A DNA stretch of 64,000 bases from Pocillopora damicornis. Lineage: Eukaryota. The stretch is from assembly GCF_003704095.1 (NCBI RefSeq), contig NW_020844755.1, forward strand, positions 124,001 to 188,000, read 5' to 3'. Made by a program: the position numbers. How positions within the stretch are numbered: position 1 is the first letter of the stretch; every line of letters starts with the position of its first letter. Shown piece after piece: positions 35,701 to 44,700 of the stretch.

Positions 35701-38700
35701 TCCCCTAGTCTCTAGTCTTGCACCCAGACCTCTCACGGCTACGAGGTTGTAAGCTCTCCAACACTTGGGGCCCTACATTGAACGGTTACATCCTGAAAAT
35801 AGAAAGAATAGAAAAGATATTCGTCGATAAGTTAAAATTCTTAACTTTAATTTATCCAACAAACAAACGCATAGTGAAAATAATTTTGGAATGATTTTAT
35901 ATGTTAGAGGAGTTAAGAAAAAGAGAACGAAATTTAGAGGTAAGAGGCTATAAGGAGGTCCGTACTATAAGTCAAAGACTGAGTTTTTTTCTACTCTGAT
36001 TTATGGTGCGAACTGCGCGGGCCTCAATGCCGAGCGCAAAAAAAAAAAAAAACAAGCTCCCTAATTTATAGTATGGACAGAGAGAATGAAGTCAGTAAGA
36101 CATTAATTATAAAGAAGGGGAAATTATTTTTTATTCCAACGATCGACCGTTTCTTATCGTTTCTGCTCAGATGATTGGTCGATAAATATTTACTTCTTAA
36201 TTTTAACAAAAAGGGATTTATTTACTTATTTGGTTCAGTTCTGAACGAGAAAAAATTGAGAAAGATAGTCCACCATACGGGTCTTAAGAAAATGTGGATT
36301 TACCTTTGAGACAAATCGGCCATTTCTAATAGTGTTCTCTAAACTTTCCCGAACTAAATCTCAGAAGTACACGTGATTAGTTATCTGTTCGAAGCTGATA
36401 AATGCAATGAATAACCGCAGGAAAGAATTTCGAAAAGCTCACGTTATTCTTCCATGCAGAGCAAAGTAGAGAACTGTGGGTCGGGTACGTACGTTTATAT
36501 CTGTTGATATTGTGGAACTGCACCATCGGAGCAAGCAGAAATAAATAAATTAAAAGTTAAGATGACAAGTATTCGTTAAATTCACCGGAGCAAAGTCGAT
36601 AAGTAATATAAAAGTTTGTTTAGGTTCTCTAAGCGGAGGGAAGATCGGCAATCAGAATGCACAATGCAATACATTGCATTGAAACGCATCTTAGTTCTAT
36701 GTACTTACTTTAATTGATAAACATAATTAGTCAGAACACCGCCAATACCATCTTTACAATTGCTATCTTCCGCTACTTCGTAGGTATTGTAAGCCTCCCC
36801 TAATGTTTTGTCCGTCCAGCACTCGCCATTGTTTTGCAAAGCAAAGTATTCGATCATCTTGTCACGTGCGACGTATGCACATTGCAGGATTGTATACCCG
36901 GGATCGTCATCATTTCGTTGAGCCACGAAGGTCGCAAATTTATCTTTGAGAAGCCTCTTAGAGCCTTTGTTCTCCTTGAAACAGCCAATTGCATTAGGCG
37001 TTGGCTTTGACTCTGGAAAAAAAAAATGGGAAGTTGATAGTCTCTGTTGTGCCAGTTTTCATTCGTCATTAACTAAGGAGCATTTCAGCTTAAGAAGTGT
37101 TCTAGAGGAAAGTGATTTTAGAGGGCAGGCCGCTATCATCCTAGCTGCAATTCACCACTTTTATAATTTTAATTTTTGTCATCTTAACAACATAATATAT
37201 AGATTTAGCCAAGCCTAAAAGCGGAGCTTGCATTTTTTGCCAGGTACTCTTTTATAATTATGGGGCTACGCTCTGTGAGCTCCGCTATTACAACTGGACC
37301 AGACTTGCGTCTCCTTCAACCTTTCCCGACGGTAACCCAGAGCCAATGTTATAGCCAAGTAATACCGAGGGTCAATGAAGAAACATATGTCACAAGCTAG
37401 CTACTCAGATTGTTGTGTTATTCATTCGCTTTCACTTTAAACTCACCAAATGTATACACTTGGATGGAAAATTTTATTCCTATACCATTCTTGCAATCTT
37501 TGGCAGCAGCGGGCCCTTTCGCGTAGTAATTGTTTTTAGCAGTGCTACTGGACAAGCACTTTCCCTTATCGCCCAGTGCGAAATGGCTGTAACCTTTATC
37601 AAATGCAAGCTCTGCACACTCCAGAATGTAACTATTGAAGTTTGCTGGATCATAGTCTTTGTTAGGATATGCAAGAACTTCTTTAAAACCAGTCTTCGGT
37701 ATCTTGAAACAGCCAATATTATTGAAAGATGGTACTAGGATAAAAACAAAACGAACGTGAAGCGAAAAGGCTGTTCTTTTTTACATATGTTCACTAAAAC
37801 AGATTTAAATTACTCAACAAGTCGCTAAATTGTATGTTATGTTTGAGAGACTTAGGGCGAGGTGGCTAGCTTTATAGCTTTAAGACATTTTAATTTTCTC
37901 TCACTGATAACTTCTAAACTGTGCTCACCACTAACTAATTTAACTAGCTGCACATTTAACAGTTCCTTTTTTGCCTTTTAAGTCAAAGTATTTAATGTCA
38001 AAGTACGATTTTTCAGGACTGGAATGGAGTATTGGAAAAGTGATGGGGGGAGGGGTGGAGAATTGGGGATTTTGGAGATGCAGAAAAAAATATGGCTTGT
38101 ATTTCTAAGGAGGAAAACCGCTTTTTTTCTCTTTATGCACCTTTTTTGTTGTCTTTTTTCCCCATTTTTCTAGTAGTCTGTCCCTCGTATTTTCTCAGAT
38201 CTTTCAGCGAACGCTCTCTAGACAGGTTGACATCGTTGGAGAATTTTTACCTTACAGTATAGATCTATGTAGTATGAACTGCCCTTTTTTCTACCATGTA
38301 CAGAGAAAGACGTCAAATGGATAAATGCTTTATTACATACACTTTTCAAGTATTTTGTTTCGATCACTAACCTTGACAATTGACTCCACTAAAGTCGCCT
38401 GTGCAATCACAGTGGTATTCTGTGATGTCTTCTTTATCGTTACGGCAAGCTGCTCCATTTACACATGGATCGCTATCACACGGATAGGACTGAACTGAAA
38501 TCATCAAAACATAGCAACATGTTGGAATCTCTCGTAGCTTAAACCCCTTGAATAATGCTCGGTGAACCGATCACAATGAAAAGTCTCTTCTTTGATTGAC
38601 ACTAACCTTCACAATTCTTCCCACTGAACATTTGCTGACATTCACACGAGTACTGCATAGGATCATCTTTTTCCACCACACAAAATCCATTGTTCTGACA

Positions 38701-41700: not shown

Positions 41701-44700
41701 ACATTTCCTTACATTCACATGAGTACTGCATAGGATCATTGTTGTCCACCACACAAAACCCATCGTTTTGACAAGGATCATCATCACAACCAGTTGGATA
41801 TGAATACGAGGGTTGAATACGATACACAAAGTTTGCCATCTCTTTGCCAACTCCACCTGCACAATTGTCGGACTTTCCGTACTTGCTGTATGTATTAGCG
41901 ATGTCTTTACTGGTCCAGCATTGTACCTCGTTTTGTACAGCGAAGTACTCGTAGCCCATGTCTCGAGCCAGAGTAGAACAGTACAAAATAGTGGCTTTGG
42001 GGTCAGAGTTACTTGAGAAGCTGGCGTAATTGTCAGTCAGTAACTTCTCTGATTTCCCTTTTTCTATGAAGCATCCCTCAGGGACAGATTTCGGTAAAGG
42101 TTCTGAGAATGAAATCGATACAATTGTTCATTGGAATCATATTCCTTTTTCAGAGTAGACGTTAAAAATTTGTCGAACATGTGCAAATCCTTTCGTTGTG
42201 AAGCGACACGGGATGGCTAACGAATATCACTTTTACTTCCAATGATTACCGCAGAACACATCCACCGCGATAGGTTTGAGCGTCCATTATTTCGATTCCG
42301 TCGTAGTCTTCTCTATTCTTAACCTCTGTACATAATTTTAGTCCATTCTAGCCCTTCCAGTTTGTCAGTACCTCCAAAAATTTGGGAAAGATTTCAGCTT
42401 TTTTCAAAAAGCAGGTTTTAGTCAAATAAACCGACTCAAATTGTTTGAGTTGTATCGAATGTCTATTAAAGTTAGAATCTTCGAATCTCTTCGAATTTTA
42501 CTCACCAAAAGTATATACATGGACTGAAGATTTGCTTCCAATGTCATCCTTACAGTCACTGGCTTTGGTACCCCCTTTCTGGAAGTATTCGTTCTGAGCA
42601 GTTCCACTCGACAAACAAATTGCACGATCTCCGAGGGCAAAGTGACTGTAACCTTTGTCAAATGCAAGTTCGCCACACTCATAAATATACGATTTAATTT
42701 TTTCTGGATCGAAGTCTTGGTTGTGATTTGCCAGTACGCTTTTTAGACCAGTTTTCGGCGTCTTGAAACAACCAATCTCAGAGAAAGGAGAAGCTACGAA
42801 AATAATTAAATGCACGAGCGAATAAATGAATTTAAAAATAAAGGAAAACATAGATCGATAAATTAAACGACAAGAAGATACCAATCTCTACTATATAAAA
42901 TCGTCACACTGGTAAAAAGTTATAAAAACATCACGATAGCTTAGCGAAACAGTGTTTACATTGAATGATTTATTCTGCGACTGAAACAGGCAGACTCGCA
43001 GAAAAAGAATTCCGAGTGCTCGTACCGAAGACCTTCCGATTAGCACTTCGGATGCTCCTTCACTGAGCTATAGGAGAGTGGCAGACTAGGCCGTTTAACG
43101 AGGTCCAGAGTGACAAACCTCTTGTATACTGCTGGGATAGGAATGTTGAATGTGATGCATTTGCGCAATAATGCAAATGAAGGTGGTAAATATTAAGCCT
43201 GGTGATGTAAACCAAAGATGTTGTATTCAGCGAATGACACAGACATACTCGAAGAAAAGAACTACGAGTGCTCCTAATAAGATTGTTTACATTCTGCCAC
43301 TCTGTCGCCTGGAAATCTTCTAAGATCTTACGCGTATATGTAGATTAGCGGTCCCGAAGCCCTCTAGAAGCATGTGAGATAAAGATTTGCAGGAATCCGC
43401 TCAATCGAGAGGATGGCTTAGATTTGCCACACGAGTATATGACTTTGGCACCAGAGGAAAAGACTTAATTAATAACAACTGTTCAAATTTTACATTTCTC
43501 TCTATATTTTGTGCTTTTTAAATTCCTCTTTTTCACTTTCCCCTGATGAGGGCTGGAGTTTCTTAGCCGAAGCGTTGGGATTCTAAAATCATTTTTTTAA
43601 TACTTTTAGAAATTTTTACTCGTATAACGATTTAATATAGTTATGAAGCCACATGATCATAACTCTATTTTTAATATCAATTTTTTTTCATTTATTTTTA
43701 TCTTCATTATTTTCCTATACTAAAATGAAAGGTATGATGATCATTCTAAAACCAGCTCTGACTCAAACAATCTCTACTCTGTAACCCATGACATAATTTT
43801 CTTCCACCCGGGGTGTCAGGTTTTTTGTTTTCTCCGACGACGCTAGAAAGGGTTGTGAAATATGTGTACACTTTTTCCCTAGCCTTTAAGCAGGTCCTCA
43901 CTAATTACTACCGCTTCGGCAAGAGGGTTTCTTCGCCCAGGAAGACATGAACCTGCAACTCGAGCCGCTGAGAATCTCAAGAGGTCAGGCAATGATAACT
44001 TGTGTCGGCACCCCTGCAAGCCTCTCTCTGATTAGTCTCGAATGTTACGGCGGGCGGAGAAACGCGCGTTCTTCGAGGCTGATGAGAGCTTTCTCGCATG
44101 TTTATTTTTCCCTAACCGAGAATGACGCCGACGATTGAGGTTACAGGACTATCAATTAACAGAATCGTACAAGCAAACATAATTTTAGTGACGAATGCCA
44201 ACTTTACAACCTTTTTTTCACAAAACGTCTAAGAGTTGAGATTATAACTTCGCGAGAACTAACTGCTCACCCTTCCAAATCTCTAAAATGGATGGAACGG
44301 CTTAAATACGCAAAAAACCGCTCAGCGTGTTACGTATGCTAAGACGTGGACATTTTTATTACCTTGACATTTTTTCCCAAAGAAACCAGACAGGCAGTCA
44401 CAGTGGTATTCGGATATGTCTGTCTCATCATTCCTACAGGCTGCTCCATTTAGGCAGGGCTTGGAGTCACATGGAAATATTTGAACTGAAAGGAAAATGT
44501 GCTGTTATAGTTATGCTGAGGTTTCTGTTAGTATAAAGGAAGTAAGTTTGTTAATAAATTGTGGTGCTGTGGGTAGGGTGTATCACAAAATAACTTGGTT
44601 TCATCAACTGACTTGATAATGACCGCAAAGAGTTTCGGAGGCTAACGTTTCGAGCGTTAGCCTTACGGCAGAGCGAATTGCGAATGCTCGAGCCGTCAGC

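What the first reader, a model, noticed from the sequence alone, without database searches (positions are those of the whole stretch)
36709..42793. Paired four-cysteine WSC-like domains (A and B subtypes) always occurring as an A-B tandem
Seen: each ~95-aa domain follows GCF...C..LA..KGY.(H/Y)FA(L/V)....C(L/W)......Y...G....C..G.G.....VY. A types are at 42506, 40847, 39186 and 37447; B types at 41680, 40044, 38607 (mostly in the gap) and 36709. Established: WSC domains begin Y.GC(Y/F) and contain GY.YAGLQ.G.EC, but have more cysteines and are regarded as carbohydrate-binding. Inference: a reduced-Cys WSC relative that works as a heterotypic A-B pair.
[Added by the scan's program, not by the reader: the finding's places include an assembly gap (unread letters, written N; its length is only estimated) at 38741 to 38840, 39608 to 40034. 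Whether the letters on both sides are continuous or in frame is not known: test that first.]
Basis: partly seen in the sequence, partly recalled or inferred. Interest (0 to 1): 0.65.

Follow-up and report, generated by a model that had tools for sequence, protein, structure and literature searches.

The report
Reduced-cysteine WSC pairs in ADAMTS gene
The tail of one secreted metalloprotease gene of an invertebrate animal carries four repeats of a two-module unit related to the sugar-binding WSC domain but with half the usual cysteines; it is real, and is a fairly ordinary product of exon duplication.

Summary
Seven 93-101-residue modules are visible on the minus strand, and an eighth is hidden in a gap. 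Each has exactly four cysteines. They fall into two types, A and B (A-A 59-67 % identity, A-B 26-37 %), and alternate A-B.

They are divergent WSC/PAN-fold domains.
- Pfam WSC is the only non-EGF hit in 6 of 7 modules, but none reaches the cut-off (best 27.6 against 27.8 bits).
- AlphaFold models find yeast Wsc1 and Kremen1 first, though weakly.
- The nearest ESM-Atlas clusters carry WSC and are mostly cnidarian.

Cysteine spacing fits the loss of two whole disulfides out of four.

The modules are single phase-1/1 exons in the C-terminal part of one ADAMTS-type zinc protease gene. The order is propeptide, catalytic site, disintegrin-like domain, thrombospondin repeats, spacer, 7 EGF, then 4 x [A | B+EGF | EGF].

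The strict A-B order follows from tandem duplication of one three-exon cassette of about 1.66 kb. It is therefore one event, not repeated evidence of pairing. The copies are old and under purifying selection.

The most likely role is matrix or glycan targeting of the protease (inferred). A functional heterotypic A-B pair is neither shown nor excluded. Both assembly gaps hide cassette exons, so the copy number is uncertain.

The parts
60880..61209 (-). Exon ORF with the reprolysin/ADAMTS propeptide
   Evidence: Pep_M12B_propep E 1e-14, 55.3 bits against a cut-off of 23.7
56561..57693 (-). Two exon ORFs that carry the zinc site. HETGH lies at the end of 57517-57693. G-V-D-H-D and a Met-turn-like Y-I-M-S lie in 56561-56713
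   Evidence: Motifs read. Pfam reprolysin is only weak (E 0.08-0.13), and 56561-56713 has no family
48981..55612 (-). ADAMTS ancillary core, exon by exon: disintegrin-like/CR_2 (55298-55612, 54773-54910), central TSP_1 (54098-54238), CR_3 (52118-52441, weak), spacer (51526-51723, weak), TSP1_ADAMTS (51060-51365 with 50444-50572; 49613-49930; 48981-49340). It includes a third gap at 52589-52688
   Evidence: ADAMTS_CR_2 32.4 bits (cut-off 27.3). TSP_1 33.5 (21.6). TSP1_ADAMTS 45.2, 33.9 and 32.5 (23.8). CR_3 16.0 (21) and spacer 19.0 (23.6) are under their cut-offs
44363..48723 (-). Seven stand-alone EGF exons: 48723-48604, 48141-48010, 47463-47341, 47078-46956, 46001-45879, 45213-45091, 44485-44363
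   Evidence: Six-Cys EGF pattern. Pfam: 5 of the 7 exons pass PF00008 at 25.2-38.7 bits against 21.5. The exon at 45059-45235 scores 21.1, under the cut-off. The exon at 46957-47076 scores only 15.8 on PF00008 but passes EGF_2 at 22.5 against 22.1. All are phase 1/1 with AG/GT borders
42506..42793 (-). A1 exon (WSC-like type A)
   Evidence: AlphaFold model pLDDT 81.7. No Pfam hit of its own
41680..42102 (-). B1 exon: WSC-like type B fused to an EGF in the same exon
   Evidence: WSC 27.6 bits, E 3.4e-6; EGF 26.0 bits. Model pLDDT 73.6
41444..41566 (-). E1 exon (second EGF of unit 1)
   Evidence: EGF 30.1 bits. Borders
40847..41131 (-). A2 exon
   Evidence: WSC 17.1 bits, E 0.0065.
40044..40466 (-). 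B2 exon (type B plus EGF). It is complete: its donor lies 9 nt before the gap
   Evidence: WSC 23.7 bits, EGF 25.9 bits.
39608..40034 (.). Assembly gap of 427 N. Both edges are intronic. It is the expected place of the second EGF exon of unit 2. Not filled
   Evidence: Distances taken
39186..39479 (-). A3 exon, on a 767-nt island between the two gaps
   Evidence: WSC 20.2 bits, E 6.8e-4.
38741..38840 (.). Assembly gap of 100 N (placeholder). It hides the WSC part of B3, at least 289 nt of exon. Not filled
   Evidence: No B-like segment appears on the high side
38607..38740 (-). Remnant of the B3 exon: its EGF part only
   Evidence: EGF 31.3 bits. 94.9 % DNA identity to the same part of B2
38372..38494 (-). 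E3 exon (second EGF of unit 3)
   Evidence: EGF 21.7 bits.
37447..37734 (-). A4 exon
   Evidence: WSC 13.4 bits, E 0.094.
36705..37012 (-). B4 exon: type B without an EGF. It ends in stop TAA (36707-36705) and is probably the last coding exon. The stop lies inside a GTAAGT, so a phase-2 donor at 36709 is an alternative
   Evidence: WSC 24.8 bits, E 2.6e-5.. No EGF or WSC-like segment lies below it

Best explanation
The region is the C-terminal ancillary part of one secreted ADAMTS-type zinc metalloprotease gene of a non-human, probably cnidarian, animal.

After the canonical ADAMTS core and seven EGF exons, a three-exon cassette of about 1.66 kb was duplicated in tandem to four copies. The cassette is [A] [B fused to an EGF] [EGF], and every exon is phase 1/1. 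The last copy ends after B.

A and B are old paralogues of each other. Both are divergent WSC/PAN-fold modules that keep only four of the eight WSC cysteines. By spacing and predicted secondary structure these form two whole disulfides: strand beta1 to loop L5, and helix alpha1 to strand beta4. The second helix-strand bridge, the intra-loop bridge and its CGG motif are lost.

Shown: the anatomy, the homology of A and B, the link to WSC, the cassette duplication and the purifying selection.

Inferred: the array works as a multivalent targeting arm, with four A-B lectin-like or adhesive units held apart by EGF-EGF rods. It would tie the protease to a glycan-rich matrix or pick its substrates, as the ancillary domains of other ADAMTS enzymes do. 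A and B would have different, non-redundant specificities.
For: One gene, ADAMTS order, read exon by exon. Propeptide 55.3 bits. HETGH and G-V-D-H-D in consecutive exon ORFs. ADAMTS_CR_2 32.4, TSP_1 33.5 and TSP1_ADAMTS 45.2/33.9/32.5 bits. All are on the minus strand in canonical order.

EGF exons. All 12 EGF-pattern matches in the window lie in this gene. All 9 stand-alone EGF exons examined are phase 1/1, and so are the A and B exons.

A and B are homologous. Cross-detection reaches E 1e-14 to 1e-9, with no other hit among 1653 segments. The tree split has 100/99 support.

Link to WSC.
- PF01822 is the only non-EGF family at E < 0.1 in 6 of 7 modules; a COX2-transmemb match at E 0.39 on A4 is the only other row. 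No PAN family appears.
- Foldseek's top hit for A is yeast Wsc1, 7pz2 (E 0.037, prob 0.90, TM 0.49), followed by Kremen1.
- For B the top hits are Kremen1, Wsc1 and a WSC-bearing glyoxal oxidase, followed by PAN/apple structures.
- Atlas scores are 0.95-0.96, with 201-217 of 256 features shared with clusters that carry PF01822.

Cysteines.
- The helix-to-strand Cys spacing is exactly 20 in all seven modules. This equals C49-C69 of Wsc1 and C147-C167 of Kremen1. The other pair is spaced 18 (passages of PMC9024836, and PMC5014086).
- In the models the four Cys sit in beta1, alpha1, beta4 and the long loop.

Cassette duplication. Repeat periods are 1659, 1661 and 1739 nt. DNA similarity is confined to exons, apart from one short intron.

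Selection. dN/dS is 0.06-0.26 in the 6 of 9 pairs where dS could be computed. The other 3 pairs are saturated.

Precedent. Tandem WSC beside EGF occurs in glycerotoxin, and tandem WSC in a fungal glucanase (PMC5336659). WSC and PAN modules mediate binding to carbohydrate and to protein (PMC9024836).
Against: - No module reaches Pfam's WSC cut-off, and A1 has no hit at all.
- No Foldseek match has E <= 0.001, and TM-scores are only 0.38-0.50.
- Profile searches of PDB sequences found no WSC protein.
- The models rest on an alignment of only 7 sequences from the window itself.
- Which WSC cysteine the fourth Cys matches is not settled. Spacing favours C6, but the C-A-G-G of type B recalls the CGG that follows C8.
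- Disulfide pairing was not measured, and no coordinates were available.
- The function is pure inference: there is no ligand, no expression data and no orthologues.
- That all exons belong to one transcript is inferred from strand, order and phase.
- The Wsc1 paper notes that the Wsc1 surface has no evident glycan pocket.
- Unit number and order around A3 depend on scaffolding across two gaps.
Confidence: 0.55

Rival explanations
1. A and B form an obligate heterotypic di-domain: they pack against each other and build one composite binding site, so the functional unit is the A-B pair.
For: - A is followed by B in 4 of 4 units.
- Each type keeps its own invariant signature (41 of 94 columns in A, 32 of 100 in B, only 14 shared) despite saturated synonymous sites.
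- The last unit keeps A-B but drops both EGFs, so A-B is the minimal unit retained.
- In Kremen1 the WSC domain packs tightly against its neighbour domains (passage of PMC5014086).
Against: - The alternation comes from one cassette duplication in one gene, so it is one observation.
- The A-B linker of about 12 residues is no shorter than the B-EGF (11), EGF-EGF (7) or EGF-A (10) linkers. This fits beads on a string.
- No independent architecture from another genome could be examined.
Confidence: 0.2
2. The modules are protein-binding PAN/apple-like adaptors rather than lectins. They would recruit a protein substrate, inhibitor or receptor, as Kremen1 WSC binds Dickkopf and apple domains bind clotting factors.
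For: - The fold class is shared with PAN/apple. HGF NK1, prekallikrein apple and AMA1 follow the WSC structures in the B search.
- Kremen1 WSC makes direct contacts with DKK1 (PMC5014086; PMC9024836).
- The Wsc1 domain shows no evident glycan pocket.
- ADAMTS ancillary domains commonly recognise protein substrates (established knowledge, recalled).
Against: - No Pfam PAN family hit at E <= 1, only WSC.
- The retained beta1-to-L5 disulfide is described as specific to WSC, not to PAN.
- Fungal WSC domains bind glucans, as stated in PMC9024836.
- No candidate partner is known.
Confidence: 0.2
3. The array is not functional as such. It would be an assembly artefact (collapsed or mis-scaffolded repeats or haplotigs), or a decaying or inert spacer region.
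For: - Two gaps lie exactly at cassette borders.
- The A3 exon sits on a 767-nt island between them.
- The EGF parts of B2 and B3 are 94.9 % identical in DNA, right up to the gap edges, while A2 and A3 gave no DNA match at all. This suggests repeat-induced assembly trouble or gene conversion.
Against: - All visible exons are open with intact AG/GT borders and a preserved phase.
- A1 to A4 are only 59-67 % identical, so they are four real paralogues and not duplicated reads.
- dN/dS of 0.06-0.26 with diverged introns shows long-term purifying selection.
Confidence: 0.05

Closest known systems
WSC domain (Pfam PF01822; solved in yeast Wsc1, 7PZ2, and human Kremen1, 5FWS)
   Same: - Size of about 95 residues.
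- N-terminal G-C-[FY] strand.
- A Cys-bearing helix followed by G-Y-x-[HY]-F-A.
- A Cys on beta4 exactly 20 residues after the helix Cys.
- A long Cys-bearing loop before the last strand ending V-Y.
- The same predicted order of elements: beta1-beta2-alpha1-beta3-beta4-loop-beta5.
- WSC structures are the first structural hits.
   Different: - Four Cys instead of eight.
- The second helix-strand bridge (C3-C5) and the intra-loop bridge (C7-C8) are absent.
- No C-G-G motif in type A.
- The loop between the fourth Cys and the last strand is about 9 residues shorter.
- The first loop is longer (31 against 22-25 residues between Cys1 and Cys2).
- Pfam scores are under the cut-off.
- Pfam aligns only profile positions 2-68 of 82.
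PAN/apple modules (PF00024; HGF N domain, factor XI and prekallikrein apple domains)
   Same: The same core fold class, with one helix-to-beta4 disulfide retained. PAN structures follow WSC in the B-model search. This relationship is described in PMC9024836 and PMC5014086.
   Different: - No Pfam PAN hit at E <= 1.
- PAN cores keep both helix-strand bridges; these modules keep one, plus the WSC-specific beta1-loop bridge.
- TM-scores to PAN structures are only 0.26-0.32.
ADAMTS proteases and their C-terminal ancillary domains (TSRs, PLAC, CUB, GON-1, mucin; recalled)
   Same: Propeptide, HExxHxxGxxHD zinc site read across two exons, disintegrin-like domain, central TSR, Cys-rich domain, spacer and further TSRs, in canonical order. 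The variable C-terminal modules are the part that differs between family members.
   Different: The tail of 7 EGF plus four WSC-like pairs with EGFs is not an ancillary set I know from described ADAMTS enzymes. A full-text search for 'WSC domain' with 'ADAMTS' gave 16 papers. In the 15 listed, neither term is in the title or abstract (listing only; the papers were not read).
Tandem WSC proteins: annelid glycerotoxin (EGF plus two WSC), fungal ThCrd2 and SiWsc3, WSC proteins of sea-anemone venom, trypsin-WSC of Nematostella
   Same: WSC modules used in tandem, next to EGF, on secreted proteins and enzymes of marine invertebrates and fungi (passages of PMC5336659, PMC9024836, PMC6627431 and PMC6767649).
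   Different: Those were recognised by Pfam as standard WSC. Whether any has the four-Cys form or two alternating subtypes is not stated in the passages I saw. None is on an ADAMTS.

Membership tests
WSC domain (PF01822) | Score at or above Pfam's gathering cut-off (27.8 bits) | tested here: not met
   0 of 7 modules reach it. B1 27.6, B4 24.8, B2 23.7, A3 20.2, A2 17.1, A4 13.4, A1 no hit. E-values 3.4e-6 to 0.094.
WSC domain (PF01822) | Eight conserved cysteines forming four disulfides (C1-C6, C2-C4, C3-C5, C7-C8) | tested here: not met
   Exactly 4 Cys in 7 of 7 modules. The spacing of 20 fits C2-C4. The pattern comes from PMC9024836 and PMC5014086. The actual pairing was not measurable here.
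WSC domain (PF01822) | Conserved C-G-G motif in loop L5 | tested here: not met
   Type A has C-K-[DN]-[DG]-I-G. B1 and B2 have C-A-G-G-V-G, and B4 has C-K-D-G-I-G. These are at most a remnant.
WSC domain (PF01822) | PAN/apple-like fold wrapped by a long L5 loop | tested here: inconclusive
   Model A has pLDDT 81.7 and model B 73.6. WSC structures come first, but with E 0.037 to 1.0 and TM 0.38-0.50, and no hit at E <= 0.001. The order of elements fits.
WSC domain (PF01822) | Carbohydrate (or protein) binding | not testable with these tools
   This needs glycan arrays or pull-downs with recombinant modules.
PAN/apple (PF00024) | Pfam PAN match and two helix-to-beta4 disulfides | tested here: not met
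   No PAN family at E <= 1 in any of 7 modules. There is only one Cys on the helix and one on beta4.
ADAMTS (M12B) protease | Reprolysin-type propeptide | tested here: met
   Pep_M12B_propep 55.3 bits against 23.7.
ADAMTS (M12B) protease | Zinc site HExxHxxGxxHD and Met-turn | tested here: met
   H-E-T-G-H ends the ORF 57517-57693. G-V-D-H-D and Y-I-M-S lie in the next ORF, 56561-56713. The join of the two exons is inferred and was not built. Pfam catalytic-domain hits are only weak.
ADAMTS (M12B) protease | Disintegrin-like domain, central TSR, Cys-rich domain, spacer and C-terminal TSRs in that order | tested here: met
   ADAMTS_CR_2 32.4 bits, TSP_1 33.5, and TSP1_ADAMTS 45.2/33.9/32.5 are above their cut-offs. 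CR_3 (16.0) and spacer (19.0) are below theirs. The order along the minus strand is canonical.

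The most novel reading that the evidence does not exclude
The A-B couple would be a new obligate two-domain lectin unit, a 'di-WSC' with two disulfides per half. The two halves would have co-specialised to form one composite glycan site. Arrayed four times on EGF rods, the units would give an ADAMTS protease multivalent, high-avidity anchorage to a specific polysaccharide surface, for example mucus, chitin-like matrix or the wall of a microbial partner. 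The protease would then be targeted by a glycan code rather than by thrombospondin repeats.
Probability: 0.12. Interest if true: 0.55.

Novelty: new variant of a known kind. Interest (0 to 1): 0.3.

Why it matters
It shows that the WSC/PAN scaffold can drop two of its four disulfides as whole pairs and still be kept under purifying selection. It also shows that such modules sit at or just below Pfam's cut-off, so they are under-annotated: only 15-21 % of members of the nearest Atlas clusters carry the family label.

It adds a lectin-like EGF/WSC arm to the range of ADAMTS ancillary regions. It is also a clean example of phase-1/1 cassette amplification.

For coral or anemone biology, if the cnidarian origin holds, it nominates a protease that may be tethered to glycans of matrix, mucus or symbionts.

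None of this overturns current views. The value lies in annotation and in a testable hypothesis, not in a new principle.

Tried and rejected
- **A against B as two chains.** It gave no answer: score 0.00, mark 0.34, controls not run, and the tool did not use my alignments. It is no evidence either way.
- **PDB sequence profiles.** The profile of all seven modules and the B-only profile gave only chance hits (Shedu SduA, E 0.26; 'A64', E 1). Neither found a WSC protein.
- **Prokaryotic genomes.** In the scan of one genome per species, 16 pattern matches were found and none was confirmed. The method depends on a single back-translated pattern, so this is weak evidence of absence.
- **Hydra 'sweet tooth' (SWT) domain.** I rejected this lead. 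SWT proteins of 370-390 residues hold two domains, and the source reference calls them C-type lectin-like. The paper never mentions WSC.
- **Sea-anemone matrisome paper.** It has 0 mentions of WSC and 1 of ADAMTS.
- **A badly designed literature search.** With min_terms 2, none of the 25 listed papers held 'WSC domain'.
- **Exons downstream of B4.** No EGF or WSC-like segment lies below 36705. No Pfam family was found in the 21 ORFs of at least 62 aa between 31.3 and 36.2 kb. ORFs shorter than 62 aa in that stretch were not scanned against Pfam.
- **Not done.**
Inter-domain packing in one chain is therefore untested.
  - Paper supplements, which may list such gene models, were closed.
- **Human origin.** I do not take the contig for human.

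Full report
**What the window is.** The DNA has 30-44 % G+C and short open stretches bounded by AG/GT. It is therefore eukaryotic, intron-rich DNA. I do not take it for human. The nearest protein clusters in the ESM Atlas are eukaryotic and most often cnidarian (a lead only). The gene architecture found here is not one I know from vertebrates (recalled).

**The observation.**
- A exons: 42793-42506, 41131-40847, 39479-39186, 37734-37447.
- B exons: 42102-41680, 40466-40044, (gap)-38607, 37012-36705.

Each has a pyrimidine-rich AG acceptor and a GT donor. Each visible complete exon is a multiple of 3 long and phase 1/1, except the last, which ends in a stop codon.

In units 1-3 the B exon also encodes an EGF. 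A separate 123-nt EGF exon follows it (41566-41444, 38494-38372).

The seven visible modules are 93-101 residues long and each has exactly four Cys. Identities are:

| Pair | Identity |
|---|---|
| A-A | 59-67 % |
| B1-B2 | 81 % |
| B4 to B1/B2 | 35-41 % |
| A-B | 26-37 % |

The similarity is far beyond chance. Over 1653 six-frame segments of the window, an A-only profile finds 3 of 3 B modules and a B-only profile finds 4 of 4 A modules (E 1.5e-14 to 7.9e-9). Nothing else matches at E <= 10. The A|B split has 100/99 support, while the order within A is unresolved.

**The gaps, tested first.** The window has N runs at 38741-38840 (100), 39608-40034 (427) and 52589-52688 (100).

*Gap 38741-38840.*
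- The high side is intron: 345 nt after the A3 donor. The A-to-B introns of the other units are 380-434 nt.
- The low side starts inside the B exon. Only its last 134 nt, the EGF part, are present out of 423 nt in units 1 and 2.
- At least 289 nt of exon plus some intron are therefore missing. The 100 N are a placeholder, the flanks are not continuous, and a frame across the gap is meaningless.
- B3's WSC part is inferred, not seen.

*Gap 39608-40034.*
- Both edges are intronic: 9 nt after the B2 donor and 128 nt before the A3 acceptor.
- The B-donor-to-A-acceptor span is 564 nt here, against 548 nt in unit 1 (113 intron + 123 exon + 312 intron). A hidden second EGF exon fits.
- All cassette exons are phase 1/1, so the reading frame of the message does not depend on how many whole exons this gap hides.

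I filled nothing.

A3 sits on a 767-nt island between the two gaps. The EGF parts of B2 and B3 are 94.9 % identical in DNA up to the gap edges, while A2 and A3 gave no DNA match. The gaps are therefore probably caused by the repeat, and unit number and order there rest on scaffolding.

**What the modules are.**
- *Pfam.* WSC (PF01822) is the only non-EGF family at E < 0.1. It hits 6 of 7 modules at 13.4-27.6 bits, all under the cut-off of 27.8, and aligns profile positions 2-68 of 82. A1 has no hit. A COX2-transmemb match at E 0.39 on A4 is the only other row, and no PAN family appears at E <= 1.
- *Models.* I built AlphaFold models from the seven-row alignment. Model A has pLDDT 81.7 and pTM 0.75. 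Model B has 73.6 and 0.68. Both show the order strand-strand-helix-strand-strand-long loop-strand.
- *Foldseek, model A.* Yeast Wsc1 comes first (7pz2: E 0.037, prob 0.90, TM 0.49), with Kremen1 further down the list (from rank 21) at TM 0.45-0.50.
- *Foldseek, model B.* Kremen1, Wsc1 and a fungal glyoxal oxidase head the list, followed by HGF NK1, prekallikrein apple and AMA1, at E 0.9-5 and TM 0.26-0.43. In neither search does any hit reach E <= 0.001.
- *PDB sequence profiles.* They find no WSC protein.
- *ESM Atlas.* Scores are 0.96 for B1 and 0.95 for A2, with 201-217 of 256 features shared. In 26 and 25 of the 30 hits the family set is PF01822, carried by only 15-21 % of cluster members.

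Taken together, these are divergent members of the WSC/PAN superfamily. By Pfam's own rule they are not members of PF01822.

**The cysteines.** Passages of the Wsc1 and Kremen1 structure papers give four disulfides.
- C27-C86 in Wsc1 and C122-C186 in Kremen1 (beta1 to loop L5; WSC-specific).
- C49-C69 and C53-C71 in Wsc1, C147-C167 and C151-C169 in Kremen1 (helix to beta4; shared with PAN).
- C90-C98 in Wsc1 and C190-C198 in Kremen1 (within L5, followed by a conserved CGG).

These are from PMC9024836 and PMC5014086.

Here the Cys positions are 8, 39, 59 and 80 in A1, and 10, 41, 61 and 80 in B1.
- The helix-to-strand spacing is 20 in all seven modules. That equals the C2-C4 spacing in both solved structures; C3-C5 is 18.
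- In the models the four Cys lie in beta1, the helix, beta4 and the long loop.
- The simplest reading is that C1-C6 and C2-C4 are kept, and C3-C5 and C7-C8 are lost as whole pairs, with about 9 residues of L5 deleted.
- The fourth Cys could instead correspond to C8, since C-A-G-G in B1 and B2 recalls CGG. Either way it must pair with Cys1.
- This is inference. No coordinates or chemistry were available.

**The context.** Reading exon by exon along the minus strand gives a complete ADAMTS order.
- Reprolysin propeptide at 60880-61209 (55.3 bits).
- H-E-T-G-H at the end of 57517-57693, and G-V-D-H-D plus a Met-turn-like Y-I-M-S in 56561-56713.
- ADAMTS_CR_2 at 55298-55612 and 54773-54910 (32.4 bits).
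- TSP_1 at 54098-54238 (33.5 bits).
- ADAMTS_CR_3 at 52118-52441 (16.0 bits, weak).
- Spacer at 51526-51723 (19.0 bits, weak).
- TSP1_ADAMTS at 51060-51365 with 50444-50572, at 49613-49930 and at 48981-49340.

Seven stand-alone EGF exons follow, between 48723 and 44363. The four cassettes come after them.

All 12 EGF-pattern matches in the window lie in this stretch. All 9 stand-alone EGF exons have a phase-1 acceptor 14 nt before the first Cys codon and a phase-1 donor 4 nt after the last one.

A possible signal-peptide exon starts at M 62029 (weak).

B4 ends ...Q-L-K-stop. The TAA lies inside a GTAAGT, so a phase-2 donor at 36709 is an alternative. No EGF or WSC-like segment follows it. The next recognisable gene on the strand, an AMP-binding enzyme, begins near 30.8 kb.

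That all these exons form one transcript is inferred from strand, order and phase. I built, searched and folded no joined model.

**How the A-B pattern arose.**
- The A donors are 1659, 1661 and 1739 nt apart.
- DNA similarity between units is confined to exons: about 70 % for A, 85 % for B1-B2 and 77-95 % for the EGF parts. The one exception is the short intron between the two EGFs of units 1 and 3.
- Synonymous sites are saturated (pS 0.52-0.88). dN/dS is 0.06-0.26 in the 6 of 9 pairs where it could be computed.

So one cassette [A][B+EGF][EGF] was amplified long ago, and every copy has been kept by selection. A and B had already diverged before that. 'Always A-B' is thus one historical event, not four independent ones.

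**How it most likely works.** ADAMTS ancillary regions place the enzyme and choose its substrates (established knowledge, recalled). WSC and PAN modules bind carbohydrates or proteins (PMC9024836). Tandem WSC next to EGF occurs in other secreted invertebrate and fungal proteins (PMC5336659; PMC6627431; PMC6767649).

I therefore read the array as a multivalent targeting arm: four A-B units spaced by EGF pairs. The subtype-specific conservation (41 of 94 invariant columns in A, 32 of 100 in B, only 14 shared) argues that A and B do different things. It does not show that they touch. All linkers are similarly short at 7-12 residues.

**Known or new.**
- A full-text search for 'WSC domain' with 'ADAMTS' gave 16 papers. 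In the 15 listed, neither term is in the title or abstract (listing only).
- 'WSC domain' with 'cnidaria' gave 6 papers, of which 5 were listed. I read passages of three. None describes this architecture or a four-Cys form.
- The Atlas shows that relatives exist and are partly labelled WSC already.

I therefore rate it a new variant of a known kind, of modest interest. Taxonomic range and pairing elsewhere stayed unchecked because the relevant searches and the paper supplements were closed.

Noticed in passing
window 45960-46346 (+), inside the intron between EGF exons 46001-45879 and 45213-45091: An open frame with a weak reverse-transcriptase match (RVT_1, E 0.0072, 16.5 bits, under the cut-off). 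It is probably a fragment of a non-LTR retroelement, on the opposite strand within the gene.
   Followed up: partly
window 24542-30787 (-): The next gene downstream on the same strand is an AMP-binding (acyl-CoA synthetase-like) enzyme. AMP-binding exons lie at 30398-30787 (profile positions 14-69) and 26399-26785 (206-329). A weak AMP-binding_C match lies at 24542-25228.
   Followed up: partly
window 8710-12766 (-): Exons of a nucleoside diphosphate kinase. NDK scores E 3.1e-14 at 12563-12766 and E 1.5e-4 at 8710-8991.
   Followed up: no
window 38603-38740 and 40040-40177 (-): The EGF parts of the B2 and B3 exons are 94.9 % identical in DNA over 138 nt, right up to the two gap edges. The A exons of the same units gave no DNA-level match. 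This points to gene conversion, or to a repeat-induced assembly problem that caused the gaps.
   Followed up: partly
EGF exons at 47463-47341, 45213-45091, 44485-44363, 41566-41444 and 38494-38372 (-): Five of the 12 EGF modules begin C-x-S-x-P-C between their first two cysteines. From memory, this matches the consensus for O-glucosylation of EGF repeats. The B-fused EGFs have C-D-D-D-P-C instead.
   Followed up: no
window 36705-36714 (-): The stop codon of the last B exon lies inside a consensus-like donor (GTAAGT). An ATTAAA overlaps the last codons. The first AATAAA is 483 nt downstream. The true 3' end of the gene needs transcript data.
   Followed up: partly
window 52589-52688: A third 100-N gap lies within the ADAMTS Cys-rich region of the same gene, between the exon ORFs 52713-52904 and 52118-52441. 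It may hide part of that domain.
   Followed up: no
window 61949-62071 (-): A short open frame has a Met (62029) followed by a hydrophobic run, upstream of the propeptide exon. It is a candidate signal-peptide exon of the protease.
   Followed up: no
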